Positions 24,908 through 30,209 of a DNA stretch of 48,141 nt are shown here, in pieces. Made by a program: the position numbers and the translations under genes. Where the stretch lies: the sequence record LR595863.1, one strand, 5' to 3'. Positions within the stretch are counted from its first letter, which is position 1; each line of letters begins with the position of its first letter. The notes beneath the pieces were generated by a model. That model was given only the letters and a program-made list of their open reading frames with translations. It searched no databases and was not told the origin of the DNA. The DNA is from Escherichia virus Lambda_4B5.

Positions 24908-25731
24908 CTTTCTTCCCTCTGCACCGCTGACGGTCGATGAGCCACAAAAGGGCGTTCATCGTCAGTAATAATGCTTTCTTCCGAGCCGTTAAGTGTGACA
25001 TGGCGCAGTACGCCGCTAAAAGCCAGCTCTAGGTTCTCGGCTGTAAAAGTGGTGTCTGTCGGCCCGCTTGCCAGGACGGTGCCTTTGACCATGACCGTAT
25101 AATCGCAAAATGTCGTGACGGATCCGAGATTGTGTGTTGAGACAAGCATCGTTTTGCCTTCCGCGCGTAACTCCCTCAACAGGCTGATGATTTTGGCTTC
25201 GGTTTTCACATCAACGCCAGTAAAAGGTTCATCCAGCAGGATCACATCACCCTGCTGTGCAATCGCTCTCGCCAGAAAGACGCGTTTCTTTTGTCCACCG
25301 GAAAGCTCGCCGATTTGTCGATGGCGAAAATTCACCATATCGACACGTTCCAGCGCATCGGTGACAATTTGACGATCCCTCTTTTTGGCGATACGCAACA
25401 TACCCATATGCCCATAGCGGCCCATCATCACCACATCTTCCACCAGTACAGGAAATGACCAGTCAACATCTTCTGACTGAGGGACGTAGGCAACCAGGTT
25501 TTTCTGTAACGCCTGTCGCGTGGGAATACCCAGAACAGATATCTTTCCGCTGGTCAGACGCACAAATCCCATAATCGCTTTAAACAACGTCGATTTTCCG
25601 GAACCGTTTACCCCAACCAGAGCGGCAATAGATCCACTTGGTACTGTGAAGGATGCATCGCGCAGTGCTGTGTGCCCGTTACGCCAGGTGACAGTAACAT
25701 CATTAACGACAATGCCTGCAGATTGCATCAT
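24904..25731 (-). CDS. sitB: Mn/Fe ABC transporter ATP-binding protein
   Basis: Walker [13 protein letters not shown] signature LSGGQKKR, Walker B ILLDEP. Confidence 0.9.
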
Positions 25732-26645
25732 TATTTCTCCCTTTTCCCAGCTTTAATTCCCTGTACCAGCGTACTGGTAGTAACCTTAAGAAGGTCGATA
25801 TACGTCGGTACCGGGCCGTTTTCTGTGCTCAGGGAATCGACATAGAGCACACCGCCGTAGTGTGCGCCGGTTTCACGCGCAACCTGACGCGCTGGTTTAT
25901 CGGAAATCGTACTCTCGCTAAAGACTGCCGGGATATGATTTTTCTTAACTATATCAACAACCTTACGTACCTGCTGCGGTGTTCCTTGTTGATCGGCATT
26001 AATCGGCCACAGATAAAGCTCTTTTAGCCCCAAATCGCGTGCGAGATAAGAAAAAGCCCCTTCACTGGTGACCATCCATCGCTGATTCTCAGGGAGTTCC
26101 GTAATCTGCTTACGCAGGGGGGCAAGGGTTTGGGTAATCTTGGCTTTATAAGTATCGGCATTGCGTTGGTAGGTTTGTGCATTTGCCGGATCGTATTTTA
26201 TCAACGCATCACGAATATTATCGACGTAAATCAGAGCATTATCTGGCGACATCCATGCATGGGGGTTAGGTTTGCCCTCATAGGGTCCTTCGGTGATCCC
26301 TACAGGCGTCACACCCGAAGAGACAATTACTTCTGGAACCCCATTGAGATGCTGGTAAAAGCGTTGGAACCACAATTCCAGATTCATACCATTGGCGAGA
26401 ATCAGTTGTGCCCCCTGCGCACGTTTAATATCGCCAGGGGTAGGCTGATACTCATGAATTTCTGCACCAGGCTTGGTTATGGATGAGACTTCTGCAGCAT
26501 CTCCCGCCACGTTTTTGGCCATATCCGCGATGATGGTAAATGTTGTAATGACCTTGAATTTTTCAGTTGCACTTGCCTGAAATGCGATCGAGCAGGTGAG
26601 TGCGAGCCCCCCCAAGAGCATGGTTACTTTTTTTATCGAGTGCAT
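25731..26645 (-). CDS. sitA: Periplasmic metal-binding protein (cluster A-I solute-binding protein)
   Basis: 304-aa protein with N-terminal signal peptide, His/Glu metal-ligand pattern of SitA/YfeA/MntC-type binding proteins. Confidence 0.88.
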
Positions 26646-26677
26646 AATTTAGTACCTATAGTGAGCAAAATTAGAAC

Positions 26678-26699
26678 AAACATAGCAACGGCTATGTTT
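26678..26699 (-). promoter_or_regulatory. MntR box (Mn-responsive repressor site) in the sitA promoter
   Basis: Near-perfect palindrome AAACATAGC-AACG-GCTATGTTT about 35 bp upstream of sitA ATG, matching the E. coli MntR operator as I remember it from mntH. Confidence 0.7.
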
Positions 26700-26718
26700 T
26701 ATAGCACAGCCTATACAA

Positions 26719-26738
26719 AATGAAAATGATTATCATTA
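26719..26738 (-). promoter_or_regulatory. Fur box in the sitA promoter
   Basis: AAAATGAAAATGATTATCATTAG resembles the Fur consensus GATAATGATAATCATTATC. Confidence 0.65.
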
Positions 26739-27038
26739 GCAGCTTTGAGGCCCAAAACAGGGATTAGGTTGTTTCCTGCTGGCGACGCGTTATTGAGGAA
26801 AAAAGTAAGGCAGCTAGTAGGCTTTGAAATAACGTTTTGCGGTTGGCTGATGCAATTTCGAGAGTGCATGTATTGAATGATTTCTAGCCGTTACTGATTT
26901 TCGTATTTTTTGTATGGGAGGATTTGCACCTCCCCCCACCGAGCCTCCATGACTTTACTCCACTGTCTCTAGGGCTGCTGTGTGCCAGGAGCGGAAGCAG
27001 GGGGGGCCAGAGACTCCTTAAAAGTTGATAGCTCGTTT

Positions 27039-27136
27039 TGCAGGGAGACTTACACGGTAAGCGTTATTCCGAAGAGCTTAAAATTGAAGCAGTCAAACGG
27101 GTTGTTGAGCGTGTTTATGCGCTGCCATCTGATTAA
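27039..27136 (+). pseudogene. Remnant of an IS3-family transposase OrfA N-terminus
   Basis: Short frame translating ...GKRYSEELKIEAVKRVVERVYALPSD* resembles the conserved N-terminus of IS3-family OrfA proteins; truncated at both ends. Confidence 0.35.
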
Positions 27137-27332
27137 TCGACGGAAGCAGTTCCGTTTGGTCTATGATGCAGTTGTCCGGCAGGCGCTCTGTGACGCAAAA
27201 GAACGATAGGAGTAGCATTGAAGTGAACGAGGTTATGCTTGTCTTATATTATCCTCTATTTTAAAAACATCAGCTGGTTGTGTAAGAGTTTTTATTGTTT
27301 TATCTTGTTGACTTTGCTTTTATGAAAACAGA

Positions 27333-28103
27333 GTGATTGATACAATGAAAACCTTAAGTGGGAAAGAGTTTAGGAAATTATTTAATCGTTATGAGACAGG
27401 ATTCTATCTAAGTGAGTTTGAATACTTAAAGGACTTTGATCCTTTGTTTCCTGAATGCGTAGGGAAAGAATTAAAGTTGGGTTATAAACGAAAAGTTGAT
27501 GTATGGTGCGAAGAGGATGCTGCGCTATATGCAGAATTTATAGCTACAAAAGAAAGGCTGAAAAGAGGCCGGTTAATCCTAAAAATAAACCAAGTGTGGT
27601 CGCGTGTATATCCTGCTTATATTTATGCAATTGAAGAAAGAATAAATGTCAGGGCAAAGGGGAGAGAGTCATTTAAGTATGAAACTGTGCAAGAAAAACA
27701 ATGTAAACTTTCCATAATGTTAGATGGTCTGAAAGACCTTGAATGTGAAATAGCTATGATTTCAAGTGAGTTTGAAATTGAAAAACACTCTATGCACTAT
27801 TTTTATATGATTTTTGATATTGAACGCTATATAAATGACTGCAGTTACTTTGTTTTTTCTGCTGCTAAAGTTGTTAAAGGCGTGATTCAATGCATTGGTT
27901 ACATTGACAAAAATAACAAAGCAAGTTGCGATGAATTTTATTCAGGCAGCTATGAATGCTTGGATGATGATCAGGAAACACTGAACTATTTAAATGAATC
28001 ATGCGCAGAGGGTATAGACGCTGATAAAGATCTCATCAGGAAGAATGAGTTATTAGCCTTATCCCTGAAGGAATTGTATCAACTTCTCGTTTCAAAAAAA
28101 TAA
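27333..28103 (+). CDS. Hypothetical protein, AT-rich orphan
   Basis: 256-aa ORF in a markedly AT-rich segment between the sit operon and attP; no family recognised. Confidence 0.7.
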   Translation: MIDTMKTLSGKEFRKLFNRYETGFYLSEFEYLKDFDPLFPECVGKELKLGYKRKVDVWCEEDAALYAEFIATKERLKRGRLILKINQVWSRVYPAYIYAIEERINVRAKGRESFKYETVQEKQCKLSIMLDGLKDLECEIAMISSEFEIEKHSMHYFYMIFDIERYINDCSYFVFSAAKVVKGVIQCIGYIDKNNKASCDEFYSGSYECLDDDQETLNYLNESCAEGIDADKDLIRKNELLALSLKELYQLLVSKK

Positions 28104-28432
28104 CAAGTAATACGGCGAGCGATATGACGTGCCATGGGATATCCGCACCCAGCAGCATGTTGTCTCCACGATGTCCGCAGTTCGCTCATAATAGACATTC
28201 ACTACAGTTATAGTAGAAGGTATGCATGCTGCTGAGTGGGGAAAGTGTGAAAGAAAAGAAGACAGCTGCTTTGTTTGTCGTCACGTTTATCTTCATTGGC
28301 TATGCAAGTCGTAATACAAGGCGGGACAAAACTGAGACACATAAGGCCTCGCAATGGCTTGCAAGGCCACACATGTATTGAGATGTTAATAAAATGTAGA
28401 CTTGTAATTTTGATATAAATGGTAGAGAAAAT

Positions 28433-28445
28433 CTTTCCCCAAAAT
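28433..28445 (+). repeat. Putative integrase arm-type site (P arm copy)
   Basis: CTTTCCCCAAAAT, same motif as the triple repeat next to int. Confidence 0.45.
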
Positions 28446-28571
28446 AAAAACGAACGTCAATGAAATCAAACGGTTGAATAAAGTTGATTTTGGCTAATAC
28501 AAAGACAAGAAAATAATATTTATGATTAAATATCAGCGAGTTGAATACATAATTTTTATATACTGTTACGC

Positions 28572-28727
28572 CATATGGGCTGGACTGAAGCCGCAGACCT
28601 GATTGTTAAAGGTATGGAAGGCGCAATCAACGCCAAGACTGTAACCTATGACTTCGAACGTCTGATGGAAGGCGCTAAATTGCTGAAATGTAGCGAGTTT
28701 GGCGACGCGATCATCAAGAACATGTAA
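28572..28727 (+). pseudogene. icd: Phage-borne 3' fragment of isocitrate dehydrogenase gene (replacement icd end)
   Basis: Frame translates [51 protein letters not shown], the Icd C-terminus with two substitutions relative to the E. coli sequence I remember; homology stops abruptly upstream near 28563. Confidence 0.85.
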
Positions 28728-28750
28728 TCACTACATGTGTTAAATATTTA

Positions 28751-28779
28751 AACGGGCGTGTTATACGCCCGTTGTTTTA
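28751..28779 (+). terminator. Intrinsic terminator following the icd fragment
   Basis: AACGGGCGT-GTTAT-ACGCCCGTT hairpin followed by GTTTTAT. Confidence 0.7.
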
Positions 28780-28793
28780 TGATGATGTAAAAT

Positions 28794-28830
28794 CTTCCCC
28801 AAAACTTTCCCCAAAACCCTTCCCCAAAAC
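28794..28830 (+). repeat. Three tandem arm-type repeats (P' arm), CTTCCCCAAAAC x3
   Basis: CTTCCCCAAAAC / TTTCCCCAAAAC / CCTTCCCCAAAAC in direct tandem immediately downstream of int stop. Confidence 0.6.
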
Positions 28831-28840
28831 TGGCTATTTT

Positions 28841-29983
28841 CTATGCTGTTTTGATATCTACGATAACCCAGTCTTTACCACGATCATCATTGTATCGGTC
28901 GGTCATTTTTCTGGATTTATGGCCTAACAACTTTTGCGTATCCAGACCCTGTTCCCGATATAACCGTTCTGACAGAGATCGCTGCTCATGAAATGTGGGC
29001 GCAGTTCCTTGCTCCCATTTTATGCCACATTTTTCCCTGGCCTTTTTAAAAGCCGTTGTCAGAGTATTTGCAGAAACCTGGTCTCCTCTGTTTGCTTGAG
29101 AGGTAGTGTGACGGTAATGGACCAGATATTTACTAACAACAGCATCCCTGCACTGAGATATAACTTCACGAAGGGTAATATTCAGAGCATCGCATTTCAG
29201 GTTAAGCGGAATAGCAAGTTTTGAACCGGTTTTTTCCTGAGTAATGTGCAACATGTCGTCCCAGATATCAGAGAATTTCAAATTGCAGATATCACCTAAA
29301 CGTTGTCCAGTAACAAGAGCAAGTAGCATGCCGCATTTTAAATAGGGCTGCCGTCTGCTTACGCTTTCAAATATTGCCTGCCATTCGGGCAGTGACAATC
29401 TTTGGCGGTTTACTCGATTTCGCGGTTGTTTTGTTGCCTGCGCTGGGTTAAATCCTGGCGGAACATGTCCTGCGTGTTGTGCTTCTTTGAAGACGTCGAT
29501 CAACACCATTCTCACGACTTGCGCCATCCTGTTATGACCTTCAGCCTTTACAGCATCAATTATTTCGGCAATATCAAGTGCGGTAATATCCTTGAGGTGT
29601 TGCATTCCACAATGCTCACGGAAAAGACGAATGGGTTTGCCTTTTTGCCGATAGGAGTTGGGTCTTAGTTCATTATGTTGCAGCCTGTCCTCCTGGATAG
29701 AAATATATTTATCAAGCCATTCTGTCACCGTAATTTCTGAGCGCCTGCCTTTCATTCTTTCCAGACGCTCATTGACGCTTAATATTTGTCGGGTACGTTG
29801 TTCAGCAATAATGGTATTTGCTTCAGTAGCAACTTGTTTTGCTTCATTCTCATCAGTTCCTAAGCTATGAAAACGACCGGATAGTGGATGTTTGTATTGC
29901 CAATATACCTTTCCGGTTCGCTTATCTAATTTGCAATATAAATTGGGTATAGAGATTTTGTGAGATCGGGGTCTAGCAGCCAT
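28841..29983 (-). CDS. int: Tyrosine integrase (lambda family, icd-targeting type)
   Basis: 380-aa ORF with C-terminal catalytic region (R...HxxR...Y pattern: LGHKSRKMTDRY), adjacent to attP and xis. Confidence 0.9.
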   Translation of the reverse strand: MAARPRSHKISIPNLYCKLDKRTGKVYWQYKHPLSGRFHSLGTDENEAKQVATEANTIIAEQRTRQILSVNERLERMKGRRSEITVTEWLDKYISIQEDRLQHNELRPNSYRQKGKPIRLFREHCGMQHLKDITALDIAEIIDAVKAEGHNRMAQVVRMVLIDVFKEAQHAGHVPPGFNPAQATKQPRNRVNRQRLSLPEWQAIFESVSRRQPYLKCGMLLALVTGQRLGDICNLKFSDIWDDMLHITQEKTGSKLAIPLNLKCDALNITLREVISQCRDAVVSKYLVHYRHTTSQANRGDQVSANTLTTAFKKAREKCGIKWEQGTAPTFHEQRSLSERLYREQGLDTQKLLGHKSRKMTDRYNDDRGKDWVIVDIKTA

Positions 29984-30209
29984 CAGCGATTATCCGTTGG
30001 AGTTTTGGGTTTGCGTTTATTGGGAGTTGCGGTTCTGCAAGCGTTCCTACAAAACGGGAATTTCGGTCAATCATCCAGTAGCGACCAACTTTTATAGCGG
30101 GTGGGGCCATCATTTTCCCTTGCGCGTATTTTTTCAGAACTCGCTCACTTGGTGCTAAGTCCCCAAATTCTTCTTTAGCCCAGTCCTGTAAAGTGATTAG
30201 TCGAGACAT
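29973..30209 (-). CDS. xis: Excisionase
   Basis: 78-aa ORF overlapping int start, MSRLITLQDWAKEE... with winged-helix-like region similar to lambda Xis. Confidence 0.8.
   Translation of the reverse strand: MSRLITLQDWAKEEFGDLAPSERVLKKYAQGKMMAPPAIKVGRYWMIDRNSRFVGTLAEPQLPINANPKLQRIIADGC

What the first reader, a model, noticed from the sequence alone, without database searches (positions are those of the whole stretch)
27333..28103. AT-rich orphan ORF beside attP, a typical accessory/defence hotspot location
A 256-aa ORF with no family I can recognise lies in the most AT-rich part of the window, between the sit operon and attP. It has its own upstream AT-rich leader, and an IS3-family transposase fragment lies just upstream (27039..27136). 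The int-proximal b-region of lambdoid phages is a recurrent site for anti-phage and other moron genes.
Basis: inference. Interest (0 to 1): 0.6.

Follow-up and report, generated by a model that had tools for sequence, protein, structure and literature searches.

The report
Orphan DNA-binding-like cargo gene of phage 21
The ORF is a real gene of a phage 21-type prophage that is transcribed in the lysogen; it encodes a protein with no detectable relatives outside its own small family, built from an excisionase/MerR-like winged-helix domain and a long four-helix bundle, and its function, including any role in phage defence, is still untested.

Summary
The ORF exists as described (27333..28103, +). 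The true start is probably ATG 27345, giving 252 aa. The window is a phage 21-type lambdoid genome, and the gene is phage 21 CPT_21_31 (RefSeq WP_001304451, PHROG 20520), annotated "hypothetical" everywhere.

It is a true orphan. There is no Pfam or NCBIfam hit and no credible PADLOC hit. A profile search of 1.84 billion protein representatives finds only its own family.

It is nevertheless a real gene:
- dN/dS is 0.16-0.41 across five genera.
- AlphaFold2 gives pLDDT 92.5.
- Published RNA-seq of the LF82 prophage Perceval shows it transcribed at CI-repressor level in DMEM and in macrophages.

The gene travels as a ~960-bp module (conserved promoter region, ORF, 3' flank) among unrelated mobile elements. 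In one species it sits directly beside the PD-Lambda-4 defence system.

The moron/accessory reading is supported. A defence role is plausible but unproven. My best guess is an oligomeric DNA-binding factor used in conflicts between mobile elements. Two details are wrong: this is not the most AT-rich part of the window, and the IS3 remnant is only weakly supported.

The parts
27345..28103 (+). Coding sequence: 252 aa plus stop. An alternative annotated GTG start at 27333 would give 256 aa. This is phage 21 CPT_21_31, WP_001304451 and LF82_189/PERCE_30.
   Evidence: ORF list. PHROG 20520 matches residues 5-256 of the GTG form. Homologues begin at MKTLSGK. dN/dS is 0.16-0.41. Phage 21 annotation. 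RNA-seq.
27345..27509 (+). N-terminal domain (aa 1-55): a beta-alpha-alpha-beta-beta winged helix of the AlpA/Xis/MerR type, with a conserved basic wing (GKELKxGYKRK).
27510..28100 (+). C-terminal ~197 aa: long four-helix bundle (helices 56-110, 115-147, 153-189, 206-251). Invariant residues include M150-H151-Y152, C166, C183, C195 and D207-D209; C205 is nearly invariant.
27231..27344 (+). Conserved upstream regulatory region that travels with the gene (the core is about 27263-27316). It contains TTGACT at 27308-27313, a TTGT-N6-TTGT 'CII-site' pattern at 27295-27308, and a 4-codon uORF at 27322-27336.
   Evidence: Alignments across 5-7 genera. BLAST module boundaries. In LF82 the ORF just upstream (LF82_188) is low while this gene is high, so transcription must begin in this interval (inference). 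No consensus sigma-70 site was found by the scan.
28104..28189 (+). Conserved 3' flank of the module: a degenerate half-copy of an ~85-bp palindromic repeat.
   Evidence: Alignment. Boundary listing. nhmmer finds full copies at the equivalent position in L005, L006 and L007. The window copy does not fold better than shuffles.
26962..26997 (.). Relic of the same palindromic repeat at the left edge of the imported segment.
   Evidence: nhmmer E 0.003. The motif GTGCCAGGAGCGGA occurs at 26982. Homology to Citrobacter telavivensis L006 starts at 26967.
27048..27135 (+). Remnant of an IS3-family OrfA N-terminus. It lies inside a ~230-bp segment inserted between the repeat and the promoter region, and is shared with C. 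telavivensis.
   Evidence: Pfam HTH_Tnp_1 E 0.0035, below cut-off. tblastn gives 65% identity to features annotated as transposase. In L005 and L007 the repeat abuts the promoter region directly, without this segment.

Best explanation
This is a self-contained, horizontally mobile accessory gene (a moron) of the phage 21-type prophage. It is transcribed from its own conserved upstream region while the prophage is repressed.

Its product is a soluble, mildly acidic ~30-kDa protein. The N-terminal AlpA/Xis/MerR-type winged helix, with a conserved basic wing, most likely contacts nucleic acid. The long four-helix bundle most likely mediates oligomerisation, and possibly sensing through a conserved Cys cluster.

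The role I consider most likely is in conflict between mobile elements: an exclusion or defence factor that binds DNA, or a DNA-bound regulator, of an incoming phage, satellite or other element and blocks a step such as excision/activation, replication or packaging. This would happen without an enzymatic effector.

Shown: the gene is real, under purifying selection, expressed in a lysogen, an orphan, has this two-domain fold, and is modular cargo in several kinds of mobile element.

Inferred: DNA binding, oligomerisation, and the exclusion/defence role.
For: - Real and constrained: dN/dS 0.16-0.41; confident fold.
- Expressed in the lysogen: in LF82 Perceval the log2(fpkm+5) values are 7.1-8.0 in DMEM and macrophages, equal to CI (6.7-8.1), while structural genes sit at 2.3-3. 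In LB stationary phase the value is 4.4, about 3x the prophage median (PMC9928086).
- Own regulatory region: about 115 bp upstream are conserved with the gene in seven genera or contexts.
- Cargo behaviour: the same ~960-bp module occurs in a prophage, two conjugative elements, three integrase- or TA-bearing islands and small islets, with unrelated neighbours.
- Rare and patchy: 3 of 185,579 species representatives carry it, yet 760 of 5,426 complete E. coli genomes do, at >=99% identity.
- AT-rich in every host.
- Defence-type neighbours: PD-Lambda-4 A and a truncated B directly upstream in L009; a T5orf172 protein that hits the PDC-S57 and PD-Lambda-1 models in L006; HNH_2 in L015.
Against: - There is no match to any PADLOC model beyond a 25-residue E 0.0034 stretch.
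- There is no nuclease, NTPase, TM or other effector domain.
- The presumed recognition helix (LSEFEYLKAF) carries two conserved Glu, and the domain is nearly neutral. Sequence-specific DNA binding is therefore not assured; the same fold also mediates protein contacts (CbpM and RppC appear).
- Defence neighbours are present in only about 3 of 9 contexts.
- The gene fell below the authors' 5x moron cut-off in LB.
- The Vassallo functional selection on an E. coli strain library did not report it. That screen was not saturating, and I do not know whether the gene was in the library.
Confidence: 0.35

Rival explanations
1. Lysogenic-conversion transcription factor. A MerR-like architecture (winged helix plus helical dimerisation/sensor module) binds its own conserved promoter region and host or element promoters. 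The conserved cysteines (C166, C183, C195, C205) would sense metal or redox state.
Against: No MerR or HTH Pfam profile matches, even at E 10. I found no palindromic operator and no 19-20-bp-spacer promoter in the leader. The module travels without sit and without any conserved target gene. Its expression pattern differs from sitA: at 6 h in DMEM sitA is 3.9 and this gene 7.4. The putative recognition helix is acidic.
Confidence: 0.27
2. DNA-organising or element-maintenance protein of the 'winged helix plus coiled-coil/helical bundle' type. Analogues are DdrC, RacA, pSK1 Par and KfrA (KfrA named from my own knowledge; it was not a tool hit). It would bind and bridge or coat DNA of the element that carries it.
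Confidence: 0.13
3. Counter-defence or anti-satellite factor. An AlpA/Xis-like decoy competes with AlpA-type activators or excisionases of satellites and islands, or with small-terminase-type winged helices, protecting the carrier element rather than the host.
For: The best structural match is an AlpA-family excisionase. Terminase small-subunit and RppC domains also match. In C. werkmanii it lies in an island with Antirestrict, RadC and DUF932 genes. Lambdoid phages are helpers of E. coli PICIs, whose master activator is AlpA (established knowledge, not tested here).
Against: This is purely structural analogy, and no target site has been identified. There is no sequence relation to the phage's own Xis. 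The gene is also found in islets with no mobile-element partner.
Confidence: 0.12
4. Functionless hitch-hiker: a decaying remnant carried along with the sit island.
For: It is flanked by scars: an IS3 remnant and degenerate repeats. It is near-clonal within E. coli. No function is known.
Against: There is purifying selection across genera. The reading frame is intact in 758 of 760 E. coli genomes. The fold is confident. The promoter region is conserved and transcription in the lysogen is at CI level. It spreads independently of sit.
Confidence: 0.05

Closest known systems
AlpA / Xis-type excisionases and regulators (for example the GIsul2 excisionase PDB 8c3t, RdfS, mycobacteriophage Pukovnik Xis)
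   Different: There is no sequence-profile match. The protein is 252 aa with a ~200-aa helical bundle, against 55-80 aa single-domain proteins. The phage already has its own Xis next to int. The putative recognition helix is acidic.
MerR-family transcription regulators (PbrR, SoxR, BmrR, TipA)
   Same: Both have a winged-helix N-terminus followed by long helices. The conserved cysteines are reminiscent of metal or redox sensor sites.
   Different: There is no Pfam MerR hit. The C-terminal part is a four-helix bundle rather than one long antiparallel coiled-coil helix plus an effector pocket. No MerR-type promoter was found.
Winged-helix plus helical-bundle or coiled-coil DNA organisers (DdrC, RacA, pSK1 Par)
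Prophage morons / single-gene prophage defence proteins (general class; for example HepS of Gifsy-1, PMC13043305)
   Same: It is an independent transcription unit of foreign composition at a variable position of a lambdoid prophage, and it is expressed in the lysogen.
   Different: There is no HEPN Rx4-6H motif (read from the sequence), no hit to any PADLOC model, no effector domain, and no phenotype is known.
PHROG 20520 / phage 21 gp31 (CPT_21_31)
   Same: This is the same gene: 100% identical protein in 19 phage records.
   Different: That family carries no functional information. The phage 21 annotators also used HHpred and left it 'hypothetical' (PMC9119081).

Membership tests
Prophage moron (autonomously expressed accessory unit) | Transcribed in the lysogen independently of lytic genes | tested here: met
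   In the LF82 Perceval RNA-seq table this gene reads 7.1-8.0 log2(fpkm+5) in DMEM and macrophages, against 2.3-3 for structural genes, and 4.4 in LB (3x the prophage median, below the authors' 5x cut-off).
Prophage moron (autonomously expressed accessory unit) | Foreign base composition, own flanking regulatory DNA, and dispensable or variable presence | tested here: met
   GC is 34% against 50% for the window. The 115-bp upstream region is conserved. The module is found in unrelated elements. No terminator-like site was found after the gene.
AlpA/Xis excisionase family (Pfam HTH_17 / Phage_AlpA / Excisionase-like) | Winged-helix fold of the MerR/Xis type | tested here: met
AlpA/Xis excisionase family (Pfam HTH_17 / Phage_AlpA / Excisionase-like) | Sequence-profile membership | tested here: not met
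   Pfam finds 0 families at E<=10 for the whole protein and for residues 1-66. A PDB profile search gives 0 hits. hhalign against the phage's own Xis gives probability 0.1.
AlpA/Xis excisionase family (Pfam HTH_17 / Phage_AlpA / Excisionase-like) | Small single-domain protein acting with a cognate integrase | tested here: not met
   The protein is 252 aa with a second ~200-aa domain. A separate xis (29973..30209) sits beside int. No integrase is consistently linked in other loci.
MerR-family regulators | MerR HTH profile, plus a long dimerisation helix, plus a promoter with a 19-20 bp spacer and a palindromic operator | tested here: not met
   There is no Pfam hit. The C-terminus is a four-helix bundle. 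The leader has no inverted repeat and no such promoter. Only the fold of the DNA-binding domain matches.
Known anti-phage defence systems (PADLOC-DB v2.0.0) | Match to a defence-protein model | tested here: not met
   The only hit is PDC-M13C at E 0.0034 over residues 5-29.
Known anti-phage defence systems (PADLOC-DB v2.0.0) | Recurrent co-location with defence genes | tested here: inconclusive
   PD-Lambda-4 A and a truncated B lie directly upstream in L009. A T5orf172 protein matching the PDC-S57 and PD-Lambda-1 models is two genes away in L006. HNH_2 is adjacent in L015. Other neighbours gave no hits.
Known anti-phage defence systems (PADLOC-DB v2.0.0) | Protection phenotype against phage | not testable with these tools
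   This needs phage challenge of strains with and without the gene.
Integron gene cassette | attC site with complementary R''(RYYYAAC) and R'(GTTRRRY) cores at the 3' end, in an array next to intI | tested here: not met
   The flanking ~85-bp palindromes are two inverted self-complementary 24-nt hairpin units. CAAC/GTTG cores are present at only one end or are inconsistent. Plasmids mostly carry a single copy per record (56 places in 54 records). This looks more REPIN/BIME-like. intI was not searched for.
HEPN-type single-protein abortive-infection nucleases (for example HepS) | Rx4-6H catalytic motif in a helical bundle | tested here: not met

The most novel reading that the evidence does not exclude
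The family is a previously unrecognised single-gene system for conflict between mobile elements. A lysogen-expressed 'excisionase-like decoy' would use its AlpA/Xis-type winged helix to occupy regulatory, att, or packaging sites of incoming phages or satellites. Alternatively it would capture their winged-helix partners. Its Cys-bearing four-helix bundle would assemble it into a blocking oligomer. This would be defence without an enzymatic effector, spread as a ~1-kb plug-in module among prophages, ICEs and islands.
Probability: 0.2. Interest if true: 0.7.

Novelty: new variant of a known kind. Interest (0 to 1): 0.42.

Why it matters
The gene sits in a classic laboratory phage (phage 21) and in about 14% of complete E. 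coli genomes. These include widely used and pathogenic strains: ATCC 25922, APEC O1 and AIEC LF82. In the lysogen it is transcribed as strongly as the CI repressor under host-like conditions, yet it has no homologue of known function.

If it proves to be an exclusion or defence factor, or a regulator, it would explain part of what the sit-carrying icd prophage contributes to ExPEC and AIEC strains. It would also add a non-enzymatic, winged-helix-based mechanism to the repertoire.

The experiments are simple because phage 21, its lysogens and K-12 hosts are standard tools. If it has no phenotype, it is just one more hypothetical moron.

Tried and rejected
- Sequence homology. Pfam, NCBIfam and PADLOC gave nothing credible, and PHROGs gave only its own unannotated family. 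phmmer and profile searches against PDB gave nothing. The 5.8-billion-protein search returned only 23 close relatives. The exhaustive HMM search of 1.84 billion representatives returned only its own family and fragments.
- Conserved partner gene. Rejected: the neighbours are unrelated and differ in every locus.
- Link to sit. Rejected: the module is absent from sit-bearing plasmids and travels without sit in other genera.
- CII-activated promoter, as annotated in the phage 21 record. The TTGT-N6-TTGT pattern exists at 27295-27308, but its first half-site is not conserved in the other genera. It is left as a possibility specific to phage 21.
- Sigma-70 promoter or terminator scan. Nothing convincing on the + strand near the gene.
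- Rfam. No RNA family in 26600-28900.
- Integron cassette / attC idea for the flanking palindromes. Not supported.
- HEPN/HepS-like nuclease. No motif.
- Relation to the phage's own Xis. None.
- Remainder of PD-Lambda-4_B downstream of the module in L009. Not found, and the contig ends there.

Full report
**1. Observation**

The window contains the ORF exactly as described: GTG 27333 to the stop at 28103 on the + strand, 256 codons. It lies after the divergently oriented sitABCD operon (sitA 25731..26645, - strand). It lies before a 51-codon ORF, an icd 3' fragment (28575..28727), three TTCCCCAAAA repeats and the integrase gene (28841..29983, -).

The region 26900-28800 is 99% identical to Escherichia phage 21 (OL657228) and 100% identical to several 'Lambda_ev'/1H12-type phages. 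The window is therefore a phage 21-type lambdoid genome. In the curated phage 21 record the gene is CPT_21_31, 'hypothetical protein', annotated from the ATG that corresponds to 27345.

That ATG is the better start for three reasons:
- The PHROG profile matches residues 5-256 of the GTG form.
- All homologues begin at MKTLSGK.
- The four preceding codons are not conserved at the protein level.

The locus (GC 0.34) is not the most AT-rich part of the window, because 44.5-45.5 kb has GC 0.31-0.33. The 'IS3 fragment' is only a ~26-residue OrfA-like remnant. Its Pfam HTH_Tnp_1 hit has E 0.0035, below the cut-off, and it is 65% identical to plasmid features annotated as transposase.

**2. It is a real gene**

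- Orthologues from five genera give pairwise dN/dS of 0.16-0.41 at dS up to 0.8.
- AlphaFold2 on a 20-sequence alignment gives mean pLDDT 92.5 and pTM 0.84.
- The protein is soluble (maximum 19-residue hydropathy 1.46), has pI 5.3 and nine Cys.

Published RNA-seq of the AIEC strain LF82 shows expression. Its prophage Perceval is 99% identical here and lists this ORF as LF82_189/PERCE_30 (771 bp, 687 bp from the sitA start). The values in log2(fpkm+5) are:

| Condition | This gene | Comparison |
|---|---|---|
| LB stationary | 4.4 | about 3x the prophage median; below the authors' 5x moron cut-off |
| DMEM (1 h, 6 h) | 7.3-7.7 | CI repressor 7.1-8.1; sitA 3.7-3.9 at 6 h |
| Inside macrophages (1 h, 6 h) | 7.1-8.0 | CI repressor 6.7-7.9 |
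| Structural genes (all conditions) | - | floor of 2.3-3 |
| ORF just upstream, LF82_188 | - | 3-4.8 |

These figures are (PMC9928086, S1 Table). The gene is therefore transcribed autonomously in the lysogen. By inference, transcription starts within the ~120 bp before it.

**3. It is an orphan**

- Pfam and NCBIfam give nothing at E<=10.
- PADLOC gives only a 25-residue match at E 0.0034.
- PHROGs gives its own unannotated family, 20520.
- The 5.8-billion-protein search finds 23 clusters, all Enterobacteriaceae-like, at 63-99% identity.
- An exhaustive HMM search of 1.84 billion 50%-identity representatives finds one full-length cluster plus fragments.
- Only 3 of 185,579 species-representative genomes carry it.
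- By contrast, 760 of 5,426 complete E. coli genomes do, as a single copy at >=99% identity.
- All 19 phage records encode the identical protein.
- The phage 21 authors used HHpred and left it hypothetical.

**4. Structure**

The model has a small N-terminal alpha/beta domain (strand 3-5, helices 6-13 and 22-31, hairpin 40-55). This is followed by four long helices (56-110, 115-147, 153-189, 206-251).

- MerR-family regulators (PbrR, NmlR, CarA, TipA, BmrR, SoxR)
- RdfS and mycobacteriophage Xis
- RacA, DdrC, BldC and pSK1 Par
- small-terminase and RppC domains

The fold assignment is therefore well supported, but family membership by sequence is not.

The hairpin 'wing' carries invariant or nearly invariant basic residues (K41, K44, K48, R49, K50). 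The helix that would be the recognition helix (LSEFEYLKAF) carries two conserved Glu. DNA binding is therefore likely but not certain.

In the bundle, M150-H151-Y152, C166, C183, C195 and D207-D209 are invariant, and C205 is nearly invariant. I could not inspect the geometry of these residues.

**5. Genomic behaviour**

BLAST against all fetched loci shows one shared module, corresponding to window 27231-28189. It consists of ~115 bp upstream, the ORF and ~85 bp downstream. The neighbours are unrelated. The contexts are:

| Host | Context |
|---|---|
| E. coli | phage 21-type prophage at icd |
| Citrobacter sedlakii | ICE with TraG and TraC |
| Unnamed assembly | second conjugative element (TraG_N, TraU, TraC) |
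| C. telavivensis | island with an integrase fragment, T5orf172 and DUF1963 |
| C. werkmanii | island with CbtA/CbeA, RadC, Antirestrict and an adjacent HNH_2 gene |
| Klebsiella variicola | beside an integrase fragment; LmuB_C, CTD7 and MC3 genes about 7 kb away |
| Mangrovibacter; an Enterobacteriaceae MAG | small islets |
| Intestinirhabdus alba | directly after PD-Lambda-4_A (full length) and a truncated PD-Lambda-4_B |

In I. alba the truncated PD-Lambda-4_B matches residues 1-141 of 303, and its 3' end runs into the module. The T5orf172 neighbour in C. telavivensis matches the PDC-S57 and PD-Lambda-1 models. About three of nine contexts thus have defence-type neighbours. That is suggestive, not decisive.

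The module is 34-38% GC in hosts whose loci are 44-54% GC.

**6. Flanking scars**

An ~85-bp palindromic repeat flanks the module on one or both sides in L005, L006, L007, L015 and, partially, in L009 and L011. It consists of two inverted copies of a 24-nt self-complementary unit, GTCCGCT-N10-AGCGGAC. It also separates neighbouring unrelated cargo ORFs. The best copy folds into a long hairpin (-19.9 kcal/mol, z -5.1).

The window keeps only relics. One is at 26962-26997 (nhmmer E 0.003). The other is the degenerate 3' flank. Neither folds better than shuffles.

In L005 and L007 the repeat abuts the promoter region directly. In the window and in C. telavivensis a ~230-bp segment holding the IS3-OrfA remnant lies between them.

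The repeat gives no BLAST hit in 5,426 E. coli genomes. It occurs, mostly as single copies, on plasmids of Enterobacter, Pantoea, Klebsiella and Citrobacter. I read this as a REPIN/BIME-like element of non-E. coli Enterobacteriaceae. It is evidence that the segment 26967-28189 was imported into the phage 21 lineage from such a host. An integron attC interpretation was considered and not supported.

**7. Mechanism**

Shown:
- The gene is an autonomous unit expressed in the lysogen.
- It is an orphan protein with two domains, a winged helix and a helical bundle.
- It is modular, promiscuous cargo of mobile elements.

Inferred:
- The winged helix, with its basic wing, contacts nucleic acid.
- The bundle oligomerises the protein and may sense through the Cys cluster.

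The role I favour is an exclusion or defence-type function in conflict between mobile elements, acting without an enzymatic effector (confidence about 0.35). I favour it because of the distribution, turnover, composition, expression in the repressed prophage and partial association with defence genes.

The rivals, with the evidence and refutation tests given in the structured fields, are:
- a MerR-like lysogenic-conversion regulator (0.27)
- a DNA-organising or maintenance protein like DdrC, RacA or pSK1 Par (0.13)
- an anti-satellite or counter-defence decoy (0.12)
- a functionless hitch-hiker (0.05)

**8. Novelty and verdict**

The gene itself is already in the databases as a hypothetical protein of a classic phage. 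What this analysis adds:
- the fold assignment
- the demonstration that it is an orphan under purifying selection
- the link to published expression data
- its module structure and scars
- its contexts, including the PD-Lambda-4 adjacency

It is best described as a new variant of a known kind: a prophage/MGE accessory gene with a known DNA-binding fold joined to an unmatched bundle. Interest is moderate (0.42). It is easy to test and common in clinically relevant E. coli, but nothing yet shows an unusual mechanism.

Noticed in passing
L005 2871-2946, 8539-8626, 10805-10892, 13757-13844; L006 21-91, 6838-6919, 9575-9658, 10819-10903; L007 8341-8423, 9807-9883, 10970-11051; L015 9595-9660; window relic 26962-26997: A family of ~85-bp palindromic repeats, made of two inverted GTCCGCT-N10-AGCGGAC hairpin units, delimits this module and neighbouring unrelated cargo ORFs in Klebsiella and Citrobacter islands and ICEs. 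It has no BLAST hit in 5,426 E. coli genomes and occurs mostly as single copies on Enterobacter, Pantoea, Klebsiella and Citrobacter plasmids. It looks REPIN/BIME-like rather than attC-like. Whether it mediates module exchange is unknown.
   Followed up: partly
L009 3574-7425, 7471-7941, 7887-8847 (Intestinirhabdus alba): A full-length PD-Lambda-4_A gene is followed by a PD-Lambda-4_B gene truncated after residue ~141 of 303. The module's left boundary lies exactly there, so the module appears to have replaced the 3' half of a validated defence gene. No remainder of B was found before the contig end.
   Followed up: partly
window 27322-27336 and equivalent positions in L003, L005, L006, L007, L009: There is a tiny upstream ORF in the leader. 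In other genera it encodes a short peptide containing a conserved Trp (ending M-E/V/R-W-A/V/P-R/V) and stops in a TAATG or TAGTG overlap with the main start, which suggests translational coupling. In the window a TGG-to-TGA change shortens it to MKTE. The octamer ATGAAAAC is repeated at 27322 and 27345.
   Followed up: no
window 27295-27308: TTGT-N6-TTGT matches the CII-binding pattern annotated at this spot in the phage 21 record, about 13 nt before a TATGAA that could be a -10 element. The first half-site is not conserved in the non-phage homologues, so it may be a phage-specific adaptation or chance.
   Followed up: partly
window 44986-45726 and 43717-44676: The truly most AT-rich stretch of the window (GC 0.31-0.33) holds a 246-aa ORF whose C-terminus looks like an AraC-type HTH (my reading of the sequence). 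Before it is a 319-aa ORF. Both lie just upstream of the lysis genes, another classic moron position. Neither was analysed.
   Followed up: no
window 28226-28381 and 28345-28368: A 51-aa ORF, annotated as a putative membrane protein in phage 21, lies between the gene and icd'. A terminator-like hairpin on the minus strand (GGCCTTGCAAGCCATTGCGAGGCC) overlaps its 3' end. Neither is conserved with the module in other genera.
   Followed up: no
window 28575-28727, about 28793-28829: The phage carries the last ~50 codons of host icd followed by a terminator (28751-28773) and three TTCCCCAAAA repeats, which the phage 21 record annotates as attP subsites. In lysogens an icd fragment followed by iraM sits right after the module (L002). 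This is the same integration arrangement as e14 (e14 comparison from my own knowledge, not tested here).
   Followed up: partly
PMC9928086 S1 Table (LF82 Perceval): In the same data set the two small ORFs after the side tail fibre gene (LF82_182 and LF82_183, homologues of phage 21 CPT_21_23 and CPT_21_24) rise from about 3.5-4 to 6-7.3 log2 units specifically inside macrophages. The gene studied here is already high in DMEM alone.
   Followed up: no
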